14,342 nt of DNA, from assembly GCA_030614005.1 (NCBI GenBank), contig JAUWKS010000076.1, forward strand, positions 1-14,342, in the 5' to 3' direction. This stretch comes from Candidatus Heimdallarchaeota archaeon. GTDB taxonomy: Archaea; Asgardarchaeota; Heimdallarchaeia; JABLTI01. The notes below the pieces were generated by a model, which was not told the origin of the DNA, did no database searches, and worked only from the letters and a program-made list of their open reading frames with translations. The position numbers and the translations under genes are program-made. Every line of letters begins with the position of its first letter. The first letter of the stretch is position 1. Shown here one piece after another: positions 4,669-14,317 of this stretch.

Positions 4669-7629
4669 TTACGGTTTTATAATAAATCCCTCTCTTTTTT
4701 GTGCATCTATCCTTATCTTAAGAGGAGATTTTACTTGAATATGTTTCAAATATTTAGTTTCAGTAATAACCTTTTGTTTCTCTAACCAATGCCAATCGAT
4801 TTTATGATCTTGCGAATCATGTTTCAGATGGAAATAGCCAATATTTGATGTAATGATGTTTTGGAAGAAATGGCTTCCTTGCGAAAAGTCCACTTGAAAA
4901 CCCTCTAATTCTGCTTCTATGATTATTTTCGCACCACTTAGATTATTCCATTTAGCTGGAATGCCTAGAAATCTGTCAGCAGTCCCCCATCTGCCAAAAC
5001 CTATTAGAATATAAGGTATAGTATTTTTTACTAAATTAGCATTAATCTTATCTAGTTCTTGAACGATGTCTAATGTGTTCATTTTATTAAAAGACTCTTG
5101 TTTAACATAAACGATATCTTGGATGTCTTTTCGAACCAAATTACCAGATACTTGATTTGAGTAAACAAAAATTTGTTCAACTTCAACGGATTCAGAATCC
5201 TCTAATAGTTGTGCTTCTTGGCGCAAGAAAGGCCGAATCTGTAATAAATAGAACTTGTCCTTTTCATCTGATTTTTGACTGAAATTGCCAGCAAATTCAA
5301 CTTCTATTGAACACCCCATAGCTCGTTCACCAAGGGAAAGGATTCTGGTGATGATATCTGCTATTGGTAAAGTATCTAATTTCAGTTGTTTATTGAAAGT
5401 GATTACAGGAGAACCTTCACCAAAATAGCCAGATCTTAACATTCTATTGCCGAAATCATATGTGTCTGCAATCTTTGTCAGTGTTTTGTCTTTTATTGCA
5501 GCATCAAAATCAAGTTGAATTAGAAATGGATCCTCAACAGTAAAATCAAATTCTTCTTTAGTCATATCTATAGCGTAGAAATTTCTTTGACTTTGATTTA
5601 GTAAAATATCAGGTGTTGAATAGAAATTTGTTTTCGGGTATTTTGGACAGAAATGAAGTACTGCTCCTCCATCTACAATAATTTTACCTAACCCTAAAGC
5701 AATATGAGCAATTCTGTCTTCTGGTTTCATATTATCTCCTAAAGGATAATAATTATACGAAGCAGCGGTTCCAGAAAAGTCAGGATAATAACGACTATTG
5801 TGCTCATTTCCCACTACTTTTTGTATTACAACAGCCATTTTGGATTCTTCGACGGTTTGTCCGATTGAATCTGCATAAGATTTAGCTATTTTTAAAAATG
5901 GAGAAGCATAAACCAATTTTATTGCAATAAATAATTGCTCTAAACGTTGAGCAATATTTGAACCTTTATTAGGTAACATATATGTATTGAAAATTCCAGC
6001 AAAAGGTTGATATGCAGAATCTTCAAATAAACTCGAAGATCTTATTGCTAATGGTCCAGTCAATTTCTTTAATAGAAATTTTAAATCATCTTTCAATTTG
6101 GAAGAAAGTTTTGCTGCAACAAATTTGTTTTTAATTATTTGATCTGATACTTCCGATAGAGCAAAATCATAGAGATTATTATTCGCCATAAATTTGTCAA
6201 ATGCATCAGTGCCGATTACAATTGTTTTTGGTATTTCAATAGAAACATTTTCGAACTCTTTTGGAGATAGAAATGTATTCAAAAGAAACATTAAGAAGGC
6301 AATTCCTCTTCCTTTTCCTCCCAAGGAACCTGGTCTTAATCTCAAAAACAATGTTTCTGGATGATAATTATTTCTGGAGAAATCGTTAATTATTCCACTG
6401 GTTTTTTCAAGTACAATTTCGTTAAGGGTATTTAGAAGAAATGCTCTCAATTCCCCTTTTAAAAATTCAGACACTTTTCTGGGTTTTAGTATTTGAGCTA
6501 TTTCAAATTCGCCTCTTGCTCTTAACCAATTTGAAAAGTGATCATTTGTCCCATGATAAATTAAGGATTCAATTGGGACTTTAGCGAGTTTTTTATGAAA
6601 GTCAATTACATCTTTAGCTTTTCCAACTTCTTTTCCATTTGGTAACTTGAAAATAAAATCGCCAAATCCAACGCAATCTAGTAACCATTTACGTATATCC
6701 CATAACATTCCATGCGATCTTTTATGTATAAAATAACAACCATATTTCTCTGCTTTCTTTCGATATGTATCCTTACTCGACAGTAAAATAATAGGCATAT
6801 TTGGCCAATCTCCATGAATTTTCTCAGTAAAAGAAAAGCCTGCATTCTTATCTAACTCACCATTTTTAGTAAATTCAATGTCTGAGATAATACCCAGAAC
6901 ATATTTTTCGTATTTGTTATAGTATTCCATAGCTTCTTCATAAGTTTCTGCCAACAATATTTTTGGTCGTATCCTCATTTTAAGTAAATCTTGAAAATCG
7001 TTTGTTCCTTCTGAAATCAACCTATGTGTTTGCATCATTATCTCTGCATATAATTCAGGCAATAGAAGCGAATAAAATCTAACCGAATCATCTACGAAAA
7101 TGAAAACTCTTACTTGTCCATTTTTAGTGTCAAAATCAGCATTAAGTTTATCTTCCAAGTGTTTGATGATAGCAACAAATATTTTAGAATCACCATTCCA
7201 AACAAATGTCCTATCAATTCCACCCCTATTTTCAGTACTTGGTAGGAATTTTATTTCTACAACGCTATTTAACAATAAAATTACGGGAATATCATGGATT
7301 TTTTTCACTGCACTGCCAAATGAAAAAGCATCCATATCGCCTACTCTTCTCATAGTAATAACGAGATCATATTTCTTTTTCTGTAGTAAATCAAGTGCTT
7401 CTTTTGCTGAGGATACTCTTGAAATTCTAGGCAATGTCCGTAGATTCAAATTCTGAAATTCTTCGTATATTTGATCAGAGAGTCTTCCATCCTCTTCTAA
7501 CATAAAACTATCATAAATACTTGAAACCAACAACACATTAGTCAATCGTTTCGCCATTAATTCATGAAAGACTTTGTATTTTGGTTTGTATTCTAAATAG
7601 AAGCTTTCATCTTTATTTTCGTGTGTCAT
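4669..7629 (-). CDS. Receiver-domain / PEP-pyruvate-binding (PPDK_N ATP-grasp) fusion protein, 986 aa
   Basis: N-terminal pseudo-receiver (LLVSSIYDSFMLEEDG; YDLVITM). Second receiver with D180/D181, D250, S284/S285 and K303. ATP-grasp motifs GSLGGKGRG, LAIRSSSLFEDS, FAGIFNT, MAVVIQKVVG, EVEFAG and LLQIRP. C-terminal GRWG...SQGSHFFQN domain. Confidence 0.85.
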   Translation of the reverse strand: MTHENKDESFYLEYKPKYKVFHELMAKRLTNVLLVSSIYDSFMLEEDGRLSDQIYEEFQNLNLRTLPRISRVSSAKEALDLLQKKKYDLVITMRRVGDMDAFSFGSAVKKIHDIPVILLLNSVVEIKFLPSTENRGGIDRTFVWNGDSKIFVAIIKHLEDKLNADFDTKNGQVRVFIFVDDSVRFYSLLLPELYAEIMMQTHRLISEGTNDFQDLLKMRIRPKILLAETYEEAMEYYNKYEKYVLGIISDIEFTKNGELDKNAGFSFTEKIHGDWPNMPIILLSSKDTYRKKAEKYGCYFIHKRSHGMLWDIRKWLLDCVGFGDFIFKLPNGKEVGKAKDVIDFHKKLAKVPIESLIYHGTNDHFSNWLRARGEFEIAQILKPRKVSEFLKGELRAFLLNTLNEIVLEKTSGIINDFSRNNYHPETLFLRLRPGSLGGKGRGIAFLMFLLNTFLSPKEFENVSIEIPKTIVIGTDAFDKFMANNNLYDFALSEVSDQIIKNKFVAAKLSSKLKDDLKFLLKKLTGPLAIRSSSLFEDSAYQPFAGIFNTYMLPNKGSNIAQRLEQLFIAIKLVYASPFLKIAKSYADSIGQTVEESKMAVVIQKVVGNEHNSRYYPDFSGTAASYNYYPLGDNMKPEDRIAHIALGLGKIIVDGGAVLHFCPKYPKTNFYSTPDILLNQSQRNFYAIDMTKEEFDFTVEDPFLIQLDFDAAIKDKTLTKIADTYDFGNRMLRSGYFGEGSPVITFNKQLKLDTLPIADIITRILSLGERAMGCSIEVEFAGNFSQKSDEKDKFYLLQIRPFLRQEAQLLEDSESVEVEQIFVYSNQVSGNLVRKDIQDIVYVKQESFNKMNTLDIVQELDKINANLVKNTIPYILIGFGRWGTADRFLGIPAKWNNLSGAKIIIEAELEGFQVDFSQGSHFFQNIITSNIGYFHLKHDSQDHKIDWHWLEKQKVITETKYLKHIQVKSPLKIRIDAQKREGFIIKP

Positions 7630-7715: not shown

Positions 7716-8174
7716 TTATTCATCTGAATATGTTGCACTAGCACCAGGTGCTTCTTCTATATTCACTGTTATCACAAATTGAGGCCATAATTTTTTGAGA
7801 ATAGAATGGAAATATTTTGATAACGTTTCAGAGGTTGTTGCTTCTAATGGTAAAAATACCACATCTTCTTTGGGAAACAAATAGCGTTTATTACAGGTTA
7901 TAACTTCAATCGAGTCATCTTTTTCTTCCACTTGTAACCCTTCTGCTTTAGAGGGAATTAGTACCCTGTGGTCCAATTTGTTAGTTATTTTTTTTAATTC
8001 GGATTTCAAGTCTCCATAATCTAAAACCATATGTTGGTCATCTAATTCGCCTTTTAATTTCACCTTTATGAAATAATTATGTCCATGCAATCTCCCACAT
8101 TTATCATGACCTACAATAAAGTGAGCAGAAGCAAAACCAATTCTAGGATCCTCGAATTCAATTTCAAACGGCAT
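7716..8174 (-). CDS. queD: 6-carboxy-5,6,7,8-tetrahydropterin synthase (QueD/PTPS family)
   Basis: FASAHFIVGHDKCGRLHGHNY carries the Zn-binding His residues and the catalytic Cys; also MVLDYGDLK and LDHRVL. I place the start at ATG 8174, because GAGGA (8183-8187) sits 8 nt upstream, rather than at TTG 8189. Confidence 0.9.
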   Translation of the reverse strand: MPFEIEFEDPRIGFASAHFIVGHDKCGRLHGHNYFIKVKLKGELDDQHMVLDYGDLKSELKKITNKLDHRVLIPSKAEGLQVEEKDDSIEVITCNKRYLFPKEDVVFLPLEATTSETLSKYFHSILKKLWPQFVITVNIEEAPGASATYSDE

Positions 8175-8185
8175 GTAATATTTCC

Positions 8186-8779
8186 TCAAAATGTTCTTGA
8201 TTTCACAGTATCTTCACTGATTGCTTTTAATTCAGCAATAAAACTTTCTGCTATCATTTTCGCTATGTTTTCTAATGAGACATTGTCTTTTATTTCTTGC
8301 AAACCGATTGCTTTTACGTAATCTGGAACACCAGATGAAACGATGTTTAATCCAAAATGGATTTTTGTAGAGTTATTTGAACTTGTTGCGATGCCTACAT
8401 TGATTTTCTTTTCATCATAGAACAGGTCTGTTCCTTTTTTTGTTATTTCAATAGCAAGCTCCTTTTCGAGAATTCTTTGAGTAATAAATGCTAACAGATG
8501 TAACCTATGATATGTTACTTTCAGATTTGCTGGTTGGTCATCAAACATCTCTATGATAAAATGGATGCAATCATCACCTGAAATAAGTATATCTGCAAGG
8601 TCTTTTTCACGAACAATATCTTTGACATCGATCATTTCTTGTTGTTCTAAACGCATGCTTCCTCTGAAAATGACAAAAGTATCTCCTGAGATTCCATATC
8701 GTTCTAATGCCCATAAAGGATAAATCTGTTTTCCATCATAGCATTCTTTTTTTGAGAATTCGTTGAATATTATTTCTAT
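8186..8779 (-). CDS. DUF366 family protein (COG2029-like), probably 197 aa from a non-canonical ATA start
   Basis: Core motifs EMIDVKD, DDCIHFIIEMFD, KGTDLFYDEKKINVGIAT, KIHFGLNI and VKAIGL. The in-frame upstream extension encodes YDGKQIYPLWALERYGISGDTFVIFRG, which I recognise as the family's N-terminal motif. Confidence 0.8.
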   Translation of the reverse strand: MEIIFNEFSKKECYDGKQIYPLWALERYGISGDTFVIFRGSMRLEQQEMIDVKDIVREKDLADILISGDDCIHFIIEMFDDQPANLKVTYHRLHLLAFITQRILEKELAIEITKKGTDLFYDEKKINVGIATSSNNSTKIHFGLNIVSSGVPDYVKAIGLQEIKDNVSLENIAKMIAESFIAELKAISEDTVKSRTF

Positions 8780-8786
8780 TTTTTAT

Positions 8787-8792
8787 CCCACC
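8787..8792 (-). promoter_or_regulatory. Shine-Dalgarno motif for DUF366
   Basis: GGTGGG lies 7 nt upstream of the in-frame ATA at 8779. Confidence 0.55.
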
Positions 8793-8845
8793 AAGTAAAT
8801 GATTTAGTCCAGTATTCTATCTATCTAGATTATTTGTAACTGTAA

Positions 8846-8866
8846 TTTAATTAAAAGGTTACTTCT
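8846..8866 (-). promoter_or_regulatory. Candidate BRE-TATA internal promoter upstream of DUF366-queD
   Basis: The minus strand reads AGAAGTAACC-TTTTAATTAAA in the raSEA-DUF366 gap: a purine-rich BRE-like element followed by a TATA-like box. The AT-rich background lowers specificity. Confidence 0.3.
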
Positions 8867-8871
8867 AAAAC

Positions 8872-9990
8872 CTACTTTAGGAGGTTATGTGCATTTTCTA
8901 CTAACCTGAGAGAGGAATCTCGAGATACTACTTCATATTCCAACAATTCTCTCCAAACTGTTTCACACCAACAATTTGGTTGGTCTAATTCTTCCGGGTT
9001 TTGTGTGAGAGTGTACTTCTTCAATGCTTTTACAAAGTATTTATCACAGTGTCTTCCATTGTGAATTCCTCTTTGAGAACCTGCACCTGAAGGATCACTT
9101 ACTATTCTATCAACTTGATTTCTTAGTCCCTCTTCATCAATTCTTTGCCAAACGATTTGAATGATTTCTTTCAAACTCCAAAACCTTGGAGGACGATAGA
9201 GGTCATCTCTCCATAATTTGAAAACTAAGGTTCCATTTTGAATATTTACTGGATTAATTGATATTGTTCTTGCACCCACTTTTATTGAATCAATGGTTGA
9301 TTGTATAGTATCAGCAATTGCTTCTTTTTCAGTCAAGAAAGGTGGTTTGAATAGTAAATAGCTTTTTACCCTGACATTATTGTTAATAGCTAATTTCACT
9401 GCTTTATTAAAATCGTTAAAAAGAAAACCTTTGTTGATATAATTAATTCTGATAAAATCATCACTTGATTCTAGACCAATACCCAGTTCTAATTCTTTAT
9501 CGTTACCAAGAATTGCTTTCAATCTTTTTAGTGCCTTTTTTGTAACAAATTCAGGTCTAGTCTCAACAATTACTTCAGTCACTTTACTTAAATTGCTAAT
9601 CATTTTCATAATTTCATCTTGAGCTTTAATTGGAATCTCGTTTTCATCTAGAAAACTTCCAGAGTTAAAAAGTTTCACCGATTGGAAGGTTTTATCCGAA
9701 AATTCTTGCAGAACCTTCTGAACCTGTTCAATTAAATTCTCATCTGTTATGACTTCAGAAGTATCATTTGAGTACCCACACATGCTGCATCCCCCACCTT
9801 CTCCAAGAGCCCAATCACACCCACTAGAATTCATAATAATTACTAGAGCTTTCCCTGCTTCATTGATCAATCTATCATCTTCAATCCAAGCAGCAATAGC
9901 TTTATTTGGAGCTCTGCTTTTCCTTAATCTCAATGCTTTTTCTCGCATAGTACATAACTGATCAGTGAGAATTCCTTTGAGTATTGTCAT
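8872..9990 (-). CDS. raSEA: Archaeosine biosynthesis radical SAM protein RaSEA (TIGR01210-like)
   Basis: C58-x9-C68-x2-C71 (GCDWALGEGGGCSMCGY), KLFNSGSFLD, VETRPEF, IGLESS, INKGF, YLLFKPPFLTEKEAI, SINPVNIQNGTL and LYRPPRFWS. Adjacent to arcS. Confidence 0.92.
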   Translation of the reverse strand: MTILKGILTDQLCTMREKALRLRKSRAPNKAIAAWIEDDRLINEAGKALVIIMNSSGCDWALGEGGGCSMCGYSNDTSEVITDENLIEQVQKVLQEFSDKTFQSVKLFNSGSFLDENEIPIKAQDEIMKMISNLSKVTEVIVETRPEFVTKKALKRLKAILGNDKELELGIGLESSDDFIRINYINKGFLFNDFNKAVKLAINNNVRVKSYLLFKPPFLTEKEAIADTIQSTIDSIKVGARTISINPVNIQNGTLVFKLWRDDLYRPPRFWSLKEIIQIVWQRIDEEGLRNQVDRIVSDPSGAGSQRGIHNGRHCDKYFVKALKKYTLTQNPEELDQPNCWCETVWRELLEYEVVSRDSSLRLVENAHNLLK

Positions 9991-10018
9991 TTTCTTTTGC
10001 TCCAGATTACATTATCAT

Positions 10019-11953
10019 TTATTTGACCTTACTTTTAATTTTAGCAACAGCACCAAATCTTACAGTTTCCATATCTCTTCCGGATATGAGAGCATGACCA
10101 ACGCCTAGGAGTGCGTGGTTTTTATCAACAATAACTATTTCATCTGATGGTCTTATTTCAGGGTCTGCTTTCTTAACACCTACTGCAAATAGTGTTGAAC
10201 CTTCAAGTTTCTCTCCCTCAAACATAACAAAATATTTTTTCTTTTTAGCAAGTATCCCACCGTTTTTCATTGAAAGGGTCAATTTTCCAGTAGAATAATG
10301 TATTACACCATGTTGCTGATTTTGTCTCAGAATTTTAAATGGTAGTGGTGGTCTGCCTTTCAAAGAATAAATCTCAGGAAACATTGCTTCTCCGACACCT
10401 ATCCCAAATTGATAATCAGCCACTTTTTGTATTTTGTATGTATCTGCTGAGAATTTTATTGGAGAAAGCGGTTCAACGATTTTATTGATTTCTTTGGCTA
10501 AATTTTCTAAGGAAGTATCTGTTGTAGCTCTTGTGTTTTTAGATGTGTAAATAAATGATCGTTTTAGAATTTTCTCGGATTCTTCGCATAATTCAATATA
10601 TTCTCCTGCAATATGAGCTATAATAGTAACATCGGAATCAATTTCTGATAAAACACCTACAAGTTGATCGATTGCAATTTGCTTCTCTTCATAGGACCAA
10701 TCACCAGTTACAGGAATATCATAATGCGCAGCCGGATACACCGATTCTAGTTCCCTAGGTATCACTCCTAGTGGTGAAGTCAGAATTAATTCTTGAATAT
10801 AGCCTCTCTTATTGTTGGCAACACTATCGATTGCTGCTCTAAACTTCTGATGGCTTTTTGATTCAGAATATGGTTTTCTCGCAGAGCAGGGTAAAATAAC
10901 AATAACTTTCTTTGAACTAGATATGGTAAAACGCTCGTGAACTCTTTTTTGAAATTCGTTAATAGATGGGCGAGTAAAACCATATGAGGTTATACTTTTA
11001 ATTGGAACAGTAGACCATGTTGGTGTTCTTGCAATTAACCAATCAATCCAATTTTTATCTAGTAATCTTAAAGCACTTGCACTAAATGGATTTATTTGTA
11101 TTGCTCGTTCAATATATCCTCTTAGATCTTGTTTTTTTACTGCTGAACGGATTTCTCTTATTTTCTTAGCAAAGATTCTTTCATTGTGAATTATAAGTGA
11201 ATGAAATTCACCAACACTAGATTCAGTAAATGATGAGATAAACTCTTTTGGTTCTGTATGCTTTGAACAAATTTCACATAAGCAGGTTATTTCATTCATA
11301 TCTTCCAGCTTATCTCCACCTGCATCAGTTAAATACAAACGCTGTTTTGCAGCGATATTAGCAAAACCGTTTGAAAAAACATCTATCCCTGTATAGGACA
11401 ATATTGGTAAATAAGTATGAGGTATTGGAGATAATAAAAATAATAAACTATTAACAGGAAGCACAGTTTTTAGTTTAGCAATAAAATCAATCATTTGACG
11501 AGGATTGTTGATAAATGGTAAAAGATTAGTTATTGCAATATTTTGTAATTCGAGGTTATTTAGCTCATTCAAAATCTTTTCAAATATTTGCGCTGATTTG
11601 GGGGGTTGAACAATCACTAATGACTTTTCCTTTGAATAGCTTTCAACGGAATTGCGGAGTGTTTCTAGCGTTTTATTTAACTGCTTTTCAATTATATTCT
11701 CAGATAGAGATTTGTGCATGAATAAATTTGCTATGAATTGAAAGTCAAAATTTTCAGTTACTGATATTTCAGTTGATAAATATCTTGGAGGAAGATTCAG
11801 TGAAAATCTCTCTTTTCGGTCGCCAATCTCCCAATAAAACGTATCAGATTTTGTTGAAATTTTCATAATGGTTGGCGTTTCAACTATCTTTGAATTCTCC
11901 TTTAATTTGGCTAATTTAGCAAAACCGGAAACTGAAGATATTTGAATTCTCAT
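10019..11953 (-). CDS. arcS: Archaeosine synthase subunit ArcS (TGT-like N-terminus, DUF5591 core, C-terminal PUA)
   Basis: Zn site CLCEIC...HN, ILPCSARKPYSESKSH, ILTSPLGVIPRELE, YPAAHYDIPVTGDW, DYQFG, and a PUA domain (GSTLFAVGVKKADPEIRPSDEIVI...GVGHALISG). Confidence 0.93.
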   Translation of the reverse strand: MRIQISSVSGFAKLAKLKENSKIVETPTIMKISTKSDTFYWEIGDRKERFSLNLPPRYLSTEISVTENFDFQFIANLFMHKSLSENIIEKQLNKTLETLRNSVESYSKEKSLVIVQPPKSAQIFEKILNELNNLELQNIAITNLLPFINNPRQMIDFIAKLKTVLPVNSLLFLLSPIPHTYLPILSYTGIDVFSNGFANIAAKQRLYLTDAGGDKLEDMNEITCLCEICSKHTEPKEFISSFTESSVGEFHSLIIHNERIFAKKIREIRSAVKKQDLRGYIERAIQINPFSASALRLLDKNWIDWLIARTPTWSTVPIKSITSYGFTRPSINEFQKRVHERFTISSSKKVIVILPCSARKPYSESKSHQKFRAAIDSVANNKRGYIQELILTSPLGVIPRELESVYPAAHYDIPVTGDWSYEEKQIAIDQLVGVLSEIDSDVTIIAHIAGEYIELCEESEKILKRSFIYTSKNTRATTDTSLENLAKEINKIVEPLSPIKFSADTYKIQKVADYQFGIGVGEAMFPEIYSLKGRPPLPFKILRQNQQHGVIHYSTGKLTLSMKNGGILAKKKKYFVMFEGEKLEGSTLFAVGVKKADPEIRPSDEIVIVDKNHALLGVGHALISGRDMETVRFGAVAKIKSKVK

Positions 11954-12145: not shown

Positions 12146-12871
12146 TTACTCTAAACTCTTGCCACAATGAATGCAGAAACCACTTTTACCGTGAGGTAGT
12201 TTTTTACCGCAATGTGGACAGAAATTAGAAAATTCACTCATCGGACCGAACATCTTAAGCCCAATCATCATAGAATAATTTGCTAAATCAATTAATTGAG
12301 GTAAGGTAACTTCCATTCGCTCTAATTTACCATAAGTTGGTGAAGTTGGTTCATCAGAAACCTTTGTTTGAACTATGAAACGGGTATCGATTAAGTTTTC
12401 AGGGATTTCAATTATAGCATCTTTTTGTGAGCTTCTTTTGTTAAATATAGTGAAATTTTCCAAGCACTTTAAATCGTCAACTAATTCAACGAGAATACTT
12501 TGGATCATAGAACTTTCTCCAAGAACCTTAACGAAAGCATCTGGTTTCCCTCTTAAGGAAAATCTCATTGGATTTACTGACTTTATTTGTAACGTTGCTT
12601 GGACTCCTTCTTCAGTTACTGAAATTTTTCTTTTGGAAAACCACACAAAGAGATAGTGATCCAATCCATCTGGAGATGTTTTCTTTGGCATTGATAAACC
12701 TATAACACCGTCCACATCTACTCCTCTAAGATAAAAAGCACCAAGTGGTTGAAAATTTTTCTTTTTTCCTTCTTCTTCAACAAACCTTCTTAAATCATTA
12801 TCTCGTGGAATTTCTTTTCCAATAGAATATGAAATCAATTTTGCTAGCTTTTCACGATTTAATGTAGGCAT
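12146..12871 (-). CDS. Hypothetical protein with C-terminal double zinc ribbon
   Basis: The C-terminus FCPHCGKKLPHGKSGFCIHCGKSLE contains C218/C221/C233/C236. SD motif GGAGTG at 12879-12884. The N-terminal roughly 210 aa are not recognised. Confidence 0.8.
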   Translation of the reverse strand: MPTLNREKLAKLISYSIGKEIPRDNDLRRFVEEEGKKKNFQPLGAFYLRGVDVDGVIGLSMPKKTSPDGLDHYLFVWFSKRKISVTEEGVQATLQIKSVNPMRFSLRGKPDAFVKVLGESSMIQSILVELVDDLKCLENFTIFNKRSSQKDAIIEIPENLIDTRFIVQTKVSDEPTSPTYGKLERMEVTLPQLIDLANYSMMIGLKMFGPMSEFSNFCPHCGKKLPHGKSGFCIHCGKSLE

Positions 12872-13034
12872 CTTTCAACACTCCGGTAGTAGACCCAAAG
12901 GTCTCTAACATAGTAGTAAGAACATTTCACTGATAAAAACTATACCAAATAGATTAGATAACAAATACTTTCCACATTTAATATTTTTTTCGTCAAGTAA
13001 TTATCAAAACCAATTTCTTAATTGATAAACACAA

Positions 13035-13065
13035 GGGAATAATTAAAAGAGCATAATTGATTCCC
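13035..13065. promoter_or_regulatory. Inverted repeat upstream of the NSUN6-like gene; candidate operator or hairpin
   Basis: GGGAATAATTA (13035-13045) and TAATTGATTCCC (13054-13065) form an 11-bp stem with one bulge and an 8-nt spacer. Confidence 0.4.
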
Positions 13066-13093
13066 GAACACACACAATAGGAAGATGCTGTAA

Positions 13094-14302
13094 ATGAGTG
13101 AAAGAGTAGATGACCGCATAAATGAAGTAGCAGACAAGTATCAATTTAACCCTGCCTTAGTTAATCGTTTAAGTTTCGTTTATGGGTTCGATCGAGCAAC
13201 AAGTATCATCGAATCGCTCACAAAACACACAAGTGCCTTACCTATTAGAGTAAATACAGTACTTACTACTCCAGATGCTCTCGTTAAATCATTAAATGAA
13301 AAAGAAATTCCCGCAAAACGTCATCCAGAAGTTGAAGATGCAGTATTAGTTGATGTCCGAGGACCAAATGAAATAGTTGAAAAATCCAAGAAAATTATTG
13401 TTCATAAATATGCTGCTGCTAAAGCTTTAATCGGAGGGAGCATAGGTGCTCCGGGTATTAAAGATCATGAAGATCTAAAAATTGGTGATGAAGTATCCAT
13501 TGTTGATAAAATGGGTAAAATCATTGTTGCAAATGCGGTCTTAATGATGTCCTCAAATGAAATTGACGTTCAAAAACGAGGTGTAGCTCTCAGAATAACT
13601 GCAAGCAAGTATGAGTTGCCCAGCTTTCAAAATGTTACAGAATTCCTTCGTGGACATTTCATTCAACAAATGTTACCAAGTATTTTACTTGGCTCAGAAA
13701 TCAAGTTAAAACCTCTAGCGCGAGTTCTTGACTTATCTGTTGGGCATGGAGCTTTGCTCACACATGTTTGGCAAAATAATTCTAAATCCAATGCTAGAAT
13801 TATTGCTATTGATAATTCGAATACTAGACTTGTAAGATTTAAAGACAACCTTAAGCGACTTCGTTTGCTTAATGCTCCTTTTGAGATTATGAAAATGGAA
13901 AGTAATAAAGTTTCTAGAAGATTCAATCGAAATGAGACATTTGATGTTATTATTTATCATGCACCAAACTCAAAAATAGGTATTCGACCAAAAGTCTCTG
14001 ATAATACCACTGAGGGATTGATTTTCAATAATGCCAGAAACATGAATAAAATGATGGCACAAGCAGAACGATTATTGAAAAGAGATGGTATGATCTATTA
14101 TACTACAAATAGCCTTGACCCTGCAGAAAATGAGAGAATTATTGAAGAAGTAGTTAATCACGGTCGTCTTTCTGTCGTTGAACAATCCCAATACCTTGGG
14201 GATAAAGGACCTACTAAATTCAAAGGTTCTGAACACTTACAATATTTCTTCCCAGATAAACACGACACTCAAGGATACTTTATCGCAAAGTTAACTAAAT
14301 AA
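13094..14302 (+). CDS. RsmB/NOP2/NSUN6-like PUA-domain RNA m5C methyltransferase homolog, predicted catalytically inactive
   Basis: IRVNT, a PUA domain (GAPGIKDHEDLKIGDEVSIVD), then VLD...THV, IIAID, GIRPK, ENE and the C-terminal FFPDKHDTQGYFIAKL. Motif IV reads HAPNS (normally DAPCS/T) and motif VI reads YTTNS (normally YSTCS/T). Confidence 0.88.
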   Translation: MSERVDDRINEVADKYQFNPALVNRLSFVYGFDRATSIIESLTKHTSALPIRVNTVLTTPDALVKSLNEKEIPAKRHPEVEDAVLVDVRGPNEIVEKSKKIIVHKYAAAKALIGGSIGAPGIKDHEDLKIGDEVSIVDKMGKIIVANAVLMMSSNEIDVQKRGVALRITASKYELPSFQNVTEFLRGHFIQQMLPSILLGSEIKLKPLARVLDLSVGHGALLTHVWQNNSKSNARIIAIDNSNTRLVRFKDNLKRLRLLNAPFEIMKMESNKVSRRFNRNETFDVIIYHAPNSKIGIRPKVSDNTTEGLIFNNARNMNKMMAQAERLLKRDGMIYYTTNSLDPAENERIIEEVVNHGRLSVVEQSQYLGDKGPTKFKGSEHLQYFFPDKHDTQGYFIAKLTK

Positions 14303-14311
14303 TTAACCAAC

Positions 14312-14317
14312 TTTTTT
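14312..14317 (+). terminator. Oligo-T (T6) tract, candidate terminator
   Basis: TTTTTT lies 9 nt after the stop at 14302. Confidence 0.4.

What the first reader, a model, noticed from the sequence alone, without database searches (positions are those of the whole stretch)
13094..14302. Intact NSUN6-like protein with both catalytic cysteines replaced by Asn: a candidate RNA pseudo-methyltransferase
Seen in sequence: motif IV is H-A-P-N292-S (AAC at 13967-13969), motif VI is T-T-N339-S (AAT at 14108-14110), motif I is LSVGHGAL instead of the usual (M/L)(C/A)AAPGGK, and the 402-aa protein has no Cys at all. Established: RsmB/NOP2/NSUN enzymes need the motif VI Cys as nucleophile, the motif IV Cys for product release, and the motif IV Asp and motif I Gly-Gly-Lys for SAM binding. 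Cys (TGY) to Asn (AAY) needs two substitutions per codon, so a sequencing error is unlikely. The ORF is full length and keeps the PUA domain, RPK, ENE and the C-terminal motif, which argues against recent decay. Inference: this is a maintained RNA-binding pseudoenzyme, acting as a tRNA chaperone, as a scaffold subunit for an active paralog (as Trm6 or METTL14 do), or with new chemistry. It is transcribed divergently from a region containing the tRNA-modification genes arcS and raSEA.
Basis: partly seen in the sequence, partly recalled or inferred. Interest (0 to 1): 0.82.

Follow-up and report, generated by a model that had tools for sequence, protein, structure and literature searches.

The report
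Catalytically dead NSUN6 paralogue family
This archaeal gene encodes a well-folded copy of the tRNA cytosine-methylating enzyme NSUN6 that has lost every residue needed for methylation yet is kept by selection across a whole group of Asgard archaea, so it probably now works as a non-catalytic RNA-binding protein.

Summary
ORF 13094-14302 (+) encodes a 402-aa, Cys-free protein with the full NSUN6 architecture (RRM-like, PUA and RsmB-type methyltransferase domains). It matches P. horikoshii NSun6 at E 4e-45, and its AF2 model (pLDDT 93.8) superposes on that structure at TM 0.81-0.85. Both catalytic Cys are Asn (AAC 13967-69, AAT 14108-10). The motif I Lys is Leu and the motif IV Asp is His. Independent metagenome contigs carry the same codons.

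It is not decay. About 34 orthologue clusters (40-99% identity, Heimdallarchaeial MAGs) all lack the motif VI Cys. dN/dS is 0.04-0.12, the same as neighbouring ArcS, and is lowest in the dead methyltransferase core.

A careful tree puts this clade, a second dead clade (motif VI T-H-S, four more families) and a Njordarchaeota clade in one lineage (100/98), sister to active Asgard NSUN6. This points to a single old loss.

The window's genome (90% complete) has no Cys-intact NSUN6. That argues against a scaffold role for an active NSUN6 twin.

SAM-contact and CCA-contact residues are also unconserved across the clade, whereas RNA-cleft motifs and a basic pI are kept. Most likely it is a non-catalytic RNA-binding pseudoenzyme whose target is unknown. 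I class it as a new variant of a known kind. I found no description of it in the searchable literature.

The parts
13094..14302 (+). pseudo-NSUN6 gene (402 aa, no Cys), protein P0001
   Evidence: AF2 pLDDT 93.8; Foldseek TM 0.81/0.85 to 5zvd
13157..13354 (+). RRM-like / ferredoxin-like N-terminal domain (aa 22-87), including the conserved R52-V-N-T55
   Evidence: Pfam PF22458, E 8.5e-08; conservation
13391..13600 (+). PUA domain (aa 100-169); fold kept, CCA-contact residues replaced (G118 for Ph Y112)
   Evidence: Pfam PF01472; residue mapping
13712..14293 (+). RsmB/NSUN-type Rossmann methyltransferase domain (aa 207-400), catalytically dead but the most constrained part of the gene
   Evidence: PF01189, E 5e-22; dN/dS 0.05-0.09
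13730..13756 (+). degenerate motif I, D-L-S-V-G-H-G-A-L (active enzymes: D-x-(C/A)-A-A-P-G-G-K); the Lys equivalent is L221
13958..13972 (+). degenerate motif IV, H-A-P-N-S; H289 replaces the Asp and N292 (AAC 13967-13969) replaces the Cys
13985..13993 (+). R298-P299-K300, invariant in the clade and conserved in active NSUN6
14102..14113 (+). degenerate motif VI, T-T-N-S; N339 (AAT 14108-14110) replaces the nucleophile Cys; S340 and D342 are derived residues shared by all dead clades
14126..14134 (+). E345-N346-E347, conserved in dead and active proteins
14273..14299 (+). C-terminal G-Y-F-I-A-K-L-T-K; F396 corresponds to hNSun6 F458, which packs on the target cytosine; present in all 33 dead sequences that reach this column (one is cut short at the C-terminus)
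14312..14317 (+). T6 run 10 nt after the stop, a possible archaeal terminator signal; the contig ends at 14342
   Evidence: read directly; function inferred
12872..13093 (.). 222-bp A+T-rich divergent intergenic region between the zinc-ribbon gene and pseudo-NSUN6
   Evidence: promoter role inferred, not tested
12146..12871 (-). conserved 241-aa protein with a C-terminal CxxC...CxxC zinc ribbon, divergent neighbour in genomes of family f1; a possible associate, unproven

Best explanation
The gene encodes a conserved, catalytically dead paralogue of the tRNA m5C72 methyltransferase NSUN6. It keeps the whole NSUN6 fold: an RRM-like domain, an inserted PUA domain and a Rossmann methyltransferase core. 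It cannot make m5C. The nucleophile Cys (N339), the release Cys (N292), the motif I Lys (L221) and the motif IV Asp (H289), which hold cytosine and SAM, are all replaced. The lineage arose once from an active Asgard NSUN6. It has been kept under purifying selection in Heimdallarchaeia and Njordarchaeota, often after the active copy was lost. Inferred mechanism: it still binds RNA in the cleft between the PUA and methyltransferase domains. A nucleotide may dock non-covalently in the former active-site pocket. The protein would then act without catalysis, as an RNA chaperone, adaptor or assembly factor. Shown here: fold, loss of catalytic residues, selection, single origin, phyletic pattern. Inferred: RNA binding. 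Unknown: the RNA target.
For: Fold and homology:
- PhNSun6 matches at E 4e-45 over the full length.
- The AF2 model has pLDDT 93.8.
- Foldseek gives TM 0.81-0.85 to 5zvd and 0.82 to hNSun6/tRNA.

Dead site:
- None of the 34 clade members has the motif VI Cys (N23, S4, R2, K2, Q, E, D). The motif IV Cys is kept in only 4.
- The Lys215 equivalent is mostly hydrophobic (I/L/V/M in 31 of 34). The Asp277 equivalent is N/H/S in 26 of 34 and Asp in only 3.
- All of these residues are invariant in 10 active outgroups.
- In hNSun6 the mutations C373A, K248A and D323A each abolish activity (PMC5499824).

Selection:
- dN/dS is 0.04-0.125, against 0.07-0.12 for ArcS in the same genome pairs.
- The methyltransferase core is lowest, at 0.05-0.09. 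The Asn codons 292 and 339 vary synonymously.
- ORFs stay intact down to 41% identity.

Single origin:
- All 39 dead sequences form one clade with support 100/98 in the careful IQ-TREE, sister to active Asgard NSUN6 at 98/86.
- They share the derived residues S340 and D342.

Independence from an active twin:
- No intact NSUN6 was found in G000.
- Only 2 of 12 f1 genomes have an active copy. Families f2, f4 and f5 showed only the dead type: 7 of their 16 genomes were checked by sequence, the rest judged from the hit list.

RNA-binding features kept:
- pI is 9.4. The clade median is 9.2, against 9.1 for active enzymes.
- R52-V-N-T, G187..Q192..S196, R298-P-K300, E345/E347 and F396 are conserved.
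Against: No experiment or RNA-binding test was possible. The residues that contact the CCA end and base 73 in PhNSun6 and hNSun6 are not kept (Y112 to Gly in 27 of 34). The RNA partner may therefore differ from tRNA, or RNA binding may be altered. P0001 and its three closest relatives keep D240, R245 and E269 and have a generic GxGxA motif I, with a Methyltransf_31 hit at 39.8 bits. Residual SAM or adenosine binding in this sub-branch is therefore not excluded. The sister T-H-S clade is less basic (median pI 6.8).
Confidence: 0.7

Rival explanations
1. It is the non-catalytic, RNA-presenting subunit of a heteromeric methyltransferase, as Trm6 is for Trm61 and METTL14 is for METTL3. The partner would be an active RsmB-family paralogue: the 320-aa Trm4-like or the 456-aa RsmB/Nop2-like protein of this genome, or an active NSUN6 where one is present.
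For: Two Cys-intact paralogues exist in the genome. Dead and active NSUN6 coexist in family f3 and in G075. Dead methyltransferase folds that act as partners are an established pattern (general knowledge).
Against: No active NSUN6 was found in this genome or in 10 of 12 f1 genomes, nor among the hits in f2, f4 and f5. The paralogues lie on other contigs, with no linkage. NSUN6 enzymes act as monomers on tRNA in the solved complexes (PMC5499824). No heteromer was tested here.
Confidence: 0.15
2. It is still an enzyme with changed chemistry, for example a Cys-independent N- or O-methyltransferase, or another SAM-using activity, in the sub-branch that holds this gene.
For: P0001 to P0004 keep the ribose and adenine contacts D240, R245 and E269, and have a canonical-looking G-x-G-x-A motif I. 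Generic methyltransferase Pfam models score above cut-off. The methyltransferase core is the most constrained part.
Against: Across the clade these positions vary: D233 equivalent D/E/R/S/H/N, D260 equivalent S/K/N/E/T/D, and Glu in place of Gly214 in 21 of 34. The motif IV Asp, whose Ala mutant cannot bind SAM in hNSun6, is His here. No new invariant polar residue appears at the old catalytic positions.
Confidence: 0.1
3. It is a decaying pseudogene, or the Asn codons are assembly or sequencing errors.
For: None was found beyond the loss of the catalytic residues themselves.
Against: ORFs are intact in 11 genomes and about 34 protein clusters. dN/dS is about 0.1. The Asn codons differ synonymously between genomes. 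The same codons occur in contigs of independent runs.
Confidence: 0.01

Closest known systems
Archaeal NSun6 (Pyrococcus horikoshii PH1991; PDB 5zvd; PMC6393295)
   Same: Same length and domain order (N-extension, RRM-like, inserted PUA, Rossmann core). 30% identity at E 4e-45, TM 0.81-0.85. Shares RPK, ENE and the C-terminal F-I-A-K-L motif.
   Different: Lacks both catalytic Cys, Lys215, Asp277, Gly214 and Tyr304, and the CCA contacts Asn98, Tyr112 and Glu174. It cannot use the m5C mechanism.
Human NSUN6 (PDB 5wwr/5wws/5wwt; PMC5499824)
   Same: Same fold (TM 0.82 to the tRNA complex). The aromatic residue that packs on the target base (F458) is kept as F396.
   Different: Lacks the eukaryote-specific Lys-rich loop and insertions, as PhNSun6 does. 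K248, D323, C326, C373, R126 and Y131 are all replaced.
Non-catalytic methyltransferase-fold subunits: Trm6 (with Trm61) and METTL14 (with METTL3)
   Same: A degenerate SAM-methyltransferase fold retained under selection, presumably for RNA binding.
   Different: Those act as obligate partners of an active paralogue. Here the closest active paralogue is usually absent from the genome, and no partner is known. The comparison rests on general knowledge and was not tested.
Nop2/NSUN1, whose role in ribosome assembly is reported to be separable from catalysis (general knowledge)
   Same: An RsmB-family protein whose RNA binding, and not methylation, may be the selected function.
   Different: Nop2 keeps its catalytic residues and has no PUA domain. 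The pseudo-NSUN6 has lost catalysis altogether.

Membership tests
RsmB/NOP2/NSUN RNA m5C methyltransferases (PF01189) | Rossmann methyltransferase fold of the RsmB-F type | tested here: met
   PF01189 at 78.9 bits against a cut-off of 27. Foldseek finds NSun6, Nop2, RsmB, RsmF and aTrm4.
RsmB/NOP2/NSUN RNA m5C methyltransferases (PF01189) | Motif VI Thr-Cys nucleophile | tested here: not met
   N339 (AAT). No Cys in any of the 34 clade members.
RsmB/NOP2/NSUN RNA m5C methyltransferases (PF01189) | Motif IV Asp-x-Pro-Cys (SAM and cytosine contact, and release Cys) | tested here: not met
   H289-A-P-N292.
RsmB/NOP2/NSUN RNA m5C methyltransferases (PF01189) | Motif I (C/A)-A-A-P-G-G-K with the catalytic Lys | tested here: not met
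   S-V-G-H-G-A-L; L221 stands at the Lys position.
RsmB/NOP2/NSUN RNA m5C methyltransferases (PF01189) | SAM binding (motif II and III acidic residues) | tested here: inconclusive
   D240, R245 and E269 are kept in P0001 to P0004 but vary across the clade. No binding assay was possible.
RsmB/NOP2/NSUN RNA m5C methyltransferases (PF01189) | m5C formation on RNA | not testable with these tools
   Needs an in vitro methylation assay or bisulfite sequencing.
NSUN6 subfamily | PUA domain inserted between the RRM-like domain and the methyltransferase core | tested here: met
   PF22458 at 22-87, PF01472 at 100-169, PF01189 at 207-400. Full-length alignment to PH1991.
NSUN6 subfamily | Residues recognising the tRNA CCA end and base 73 (Ph N98, Y112, E174; human R126, Y131) | tested here: not met
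   H104, G118, N180 and I113. Y112 is Gly in 27 of 34 clade members.
NSUN6 subfamily | Phylogenetic placement within NSUN6-type proteins | tested here: met
   The dead clade nests among PUA-containing NSUN6 proteins, sister to active Asgard NSUN6 at 98/86.
Pseudoenzyme (dead homologue of an enzyme, maintained by selection) | Catalytic residues lost while the fold and ORF are conserved under purifying selection | tested here: met

The most novel reading that the evidence does not exclude
The dead NSUN6 lineage is an ancient, dedicated non-catalytic RNA-handling factor of the Heimdall/Njord Asgard archaea. For example, it could be an acceptor-end or rRNA-binding chaperone or adaptor that recruits other RNA enzymes, with ArcS-RaSEA, RNase HII or the neighbouring zinc-ribbon protein as candidates. 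It outlived the catalytic enzyme from which it came. That would make it the first pseudo-m5C-methyltransferase with a function of its own.
Probability: 0.25. Interest if true: 0.75.

Novelty: new variant of a known kind. Interest (0 to 1): 0.55.

Why it matters
RNA m5C methyltransferases of the NSUN family are treated as enzymes throughout. A conserved, selection-maintained dead branch shows that the NSUN6 scaffold has a function that does not need methylation. The branch spans at least five Heimdallarchaeial families and Njordarchaeota, the archaeal groups usually placed closest to eukaryotes. It often persists where the active enzyme has been lost. This gives a natural separation-of-function variant for asking what NSUN6-type proteins do besides methylate. 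It also warns that genes annotated as 'methyltransferase domain-containing' or '16S rRNA C967 methylase' in Asgard MAGs should not be counted as m5C capacity when tRNA modification repertoires are predicted.

Tried and rejected
- **Complex of pseudo-NSUN6 with the zinc-ribbon neighbour:** no verdict (score 0.00, below the mark). This is not evidence either way.
- **Expression:** no RNA holder was listed for the gene.
- **Fold of the zinc-ribbon neighbour:** the model has pLDDT 80.6. It found no convincing solved relative (best PDB TM 0.38). It found only DUF3137- or DUF1682-like predicted folds at TM about 0.47. Its function remains unknown.
- **Co-absence of the neighbour and pseudo-NSUN6 in G080:** this looked like a phyletic link. 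G080 also lacks any ArcS match, so the whole locus is probably unassembled. I rejected it as evidence.
- **Link to arcS-raSEA:** the roughly 25-kb block is syntenic in all f1 genomes examined. The Kariarchaeaceae T-H-S homologue and the Njordarchaeota-type homologue lie in unrelated contexts. The association is not supported beyond family-level synteny.
- **Earlier notes of this scan:** no look-alike by sequence.
- **Literature:** no paper holds both 'Asgard' and 'NSUN6'. Searches on pseudoenzyme and RNA methyltransferase gave nothing relevant.

Full report
**1. Observation**

The ORF at 13094-14302 (+) is intact: 402 aa, ATG start, TAA stop, and no Cys.

- **Domains.** Pfam finds an RsmF/B ferredoxin-like domain (aa 22-87), a PUA domain (100-169) and the RsmB-F methyltransferase domain (207-400).
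- **Closest structure.** The best solved relative is Pyrococcus horikoshii NSun6 (PH1991, 5zvd), at E 4e-45 over residues 28-402. Human NSUN6 comes next.
- **Motifs.** In that alignment, motif I D-M-A-A-A-P-G-G-K pairs with D-L-S-V-G-H-G-A-L. Motif IV D-A-P-C-T pairs with H-A-P-N-S. Motif VI S-T-C-T pairs with T-T-N-S.
- **Codons.** Codon 292 is AAC (13967-69) and codon 339 is AAT (14108-10).
- **Independent DNA.** Logan contigs from four runs in three marine-sediment and cold-seep studies match at 99% or more. None differs at these codons. The first codon is covered in four runs and the second in two.

**2. Not an error and not decay**

- A search of 5.8 billion proteins gave 33 further clusters at 40-99% identity, all from Heimdallarchaeota or Asgard MAGs. 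After a gap come active-type Asgard and Thermococcales NSUN6 at about 30%.
- None of the 34 clade members has the motif VI Cys (N23, S4, R2, K2, Q, E, D). Only four keep the motif IV Cys. The motif I Lys is mostly hydrophobic (I/L/V/M in 31 of 34). The motif IV Asp is N/H/S in 26 of 34 and Asp in only 3. All ten active outgroups keep every one of these residues.
- Between the window's genome and two congeners (86-88% identity), dN/dS is 0.04-0.125. ArcS gives 0.07-0.12 and RaSEA 0.05-0.07 in the same genome pairs.
- The dead methyltransferase core is the most constrained part (0.05-0.09). PUA gives 0.10-0.17 and the N-terminus 0.08-0.23.
- Both Asn codons differ synonymously (AAC/AAT) among the three genomes.
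- The AF2 model is confident (pLDDT 93.8, pTM 0.90). It superposes on PhNSun6 at TM 0.81/0.85 and on the hNSun6-tRNA complex at 0.82.

**3. Where the lineage sits**

I searched 82 species-representative genomes of the class.

- **This clade.** Strong orthologues occur only in family f1, in 11 of 12 genomes. All are dead.
- **Active copies in f1.** Two f1 genomes carry an active-type NSUN6 (C-A-A-P-G-G-K, D-P-S-C-S, S-T-C-T). G075 has it beside the dead copy. In G080 it is the only copy found.
- **Family f3.** It has active NSUN6 and also a longer (425-480 aa) NSUN6-like protein with motif VI T-H-S and a ruined motif I.
- **Families f2, f4 and f5.** Only the T-H-S type was seen. Seven of their 16 genomes were checked by sequence; the rest were judged from the hit list.
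- **A third dead type.** It turned up in the exhaustive representative search. It maps to Njordarchaeota MAGs.
- **Tree.** A careful IQ-TREE (73 sequences, LG+C20) puts all 39 dead sequences in one clade with support 100/98. That clade is sister (98/86) to active NSUN6 of the Asgardarchaeia type.
- **Shared derived residues.** All three dead groups have S340 (Thr in 95% of actives) and D342.

One ancient loss of catalysis is therefore the simplest reading. The motif IV Cys persisted in a few members of each subclade and was lost later.

**4. This genome has no intact twin**

- Searches of the window's 3.6-Mb, 90%-complete assembly found only two other RsmB-family genes. One is a 320-aa Trm4-like protein and one a 456-aa RsmB/Nop2-like protein. 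Both are Cys-intact, lack a PUA domain and lie on other contigs.
- The queries were PF01189, PF01472 and a same-genus active NSUN6.

The dead protein is thus kept in the absence of an active NSUN6, here and in most of the class. This argues against a role as an obligate scaffold for an NSUN6 twin.

**5. What is lost and what is kept**

I used the residue lists from the PhNSun6 and hNSun6 papers (PMC6393295; PMC5499824).

- **SAM pocket.** It is not conserved in the clade. The Gly214 equivalent is Glu in 21 of 34. The Asp233, Asp260 and Tyr304 equivalents vary freely.
- **This sub-branch.** P0001 and its three nearest relatives still have D240, R245 and E269 and a generic G-x-G-x-A motif. This explains the Methyltransf_31 hit. 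Residual SAM or adenosine binding in this sub-branch is not excluded.
- **CCA and base-73 contacts.** These are also replaced: Ph Y112 to Gly in 27 of 34, E174 variable, and human R126 to I113.
- **Kept in the clade.** R52-V-N-T55, G187-x-F-I-x-Q192...S196, R298-P-K300, Y336, E345-N-E347, and F396, the equivalent of hNSun6 F458 that packs on the target cytosine. F396 is present in all 33 members whose sequence reaches that column.
- **Charge.** The proteins are basic. P0001 has pI 9.4 and the clade median is 9.2, against 9.1 for active NSUN6.

**6. Context**

- The gene is divergent from a 241-aa zinc-ribbon protein. After that come ArcS, RaSEA, DUF366, QueD, CofE and endonuclease III.
- In six f1 relatives the gene is followed on the same strand, within 0-50 bp, by RNase HII. 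A pterin-related cluster lies further downstream.
- In this assembly the contig ends 40 nt after the stop, and the orthologous RNase HII is not assembled.
- The whole block of about 25 kb is syntenic across f1. The sister dead clades lie in unrelated contexts. Linkage therefore says little about function.
- The zinc-ribbon protein belongs to a small, highly conserved family confined to these archaea. Its fold is unassigned.

**7. Mechanism**

- **Shown:** the NSUN6 fold, the absence of all four catalytic residues, purifying selection, a single origin, and persistence without the active enzyme.
- **Inferred:** the protein still binds RNA through the cleft between the PUA and methyltransferase domains, and works non-catalytically.
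- **Unknown:** the target (tRNA, rRNA or other RNA) and any protein partner.
- **Rivals:** subunit of a heteromer with another RsmB paralogue (0.15), altered SAM-dependent chemistry in this sub-branch (0.10), and decay or error (0.01).

**8. Novelty**

- Sources annotate these proteins as 'methyltransferase domain-containing', 'PUA domain-containing', 'hypothetical' or '16S rRNA C967 methylase'.
- No paper in the searchable library joins Asgard and NSUN6. A review of NSUN enzymes does not describe any dead member.
- It is a new variant within a known kind: an RsmB/NSUN fold that has become a pseudoenzyme.
- I score interest as moderate. Pseudoenzymes are common, but this one is old, widespread in the Heimdall/Njord Asgard archaea, and well supported.

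Noticed in passing
window 12146-12871 (-): A 241-aa protein with a C-terminal CxxC...CxxC zinc ribbon. It belongs to a family of about 30 clusters confined to Heimdall/Asgard MAGs, with 73% mean column identity. Its fold has no solved relative (DUF3137- or DUF1682-like at TM about 0.47). It is always divergent from pseudo-NSUN6 in family f1.
   Followed up: partly
L045-L049, L056-L065 (families f2-f5 of the class): A second dead NSUN6-like clade, 425-480 aa, with motif VI T-H-S and motif I D-x-G-E-(I/V)-A. It coexists with active NSUN6 in family f3 and was the only type seen in f2, f4 and f5. One member is from a Kariarchaeaceae MAG.
   Followed up: partly
L072-L076; P0170, P0174, P0182, P0184: A third dead NSUN6-like clade in Njordarchaeota MAGs, with motif I obliterated and motif VI T-(F/E)-S...L-D-P-x-E-G. 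One member lies next to ribosomal protein genes S8 and L6 and near RNase P Rpp14.
   Followed up: partly
L052:5939-6616 (-) and equivalents in L015, L023, L053-L055: RNase HII follows pseudo-NSUN6 on the same strand with a gap of 0-50 bp in six relatives, so the two may be co-transcribed. In the window's genome the contig ends 40 nt after the stop and the orthologous RNase HII is missing from the assembly.
   Followed up: partly
window 7716-11953 (-): An arcS (TGT + DUF5591 + C2 + PUA), raSEA-like radical SAM, DUF366, QueD/PTPS cluster. It is conserved in order across family f1.
   Followed up: partly
window 4669-7629 (-): A 986-aa protein that combines a response-regulator receiver with a PPDK/PEP-synthase nucleotide-binding domain.
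   Followed up: no
L025-L043 (family f3 active NSUN6): Active-type Heimdall NSUN6 proteins carry C-A-A-P-G-N-K instead of G-G-K, and R-P-R instead of R-P-K. This is a lineage-specific variant of otherwise intact motifs.
   Followed up: no
window 13086-13094: A 2-codon upstream ATG-CTG-TAA mini-ORF whose stop codon (TAA, 13092-13094) shares its last base with the A of the gene's ATG (13094). Its significance is unknown.
   Followed up: no
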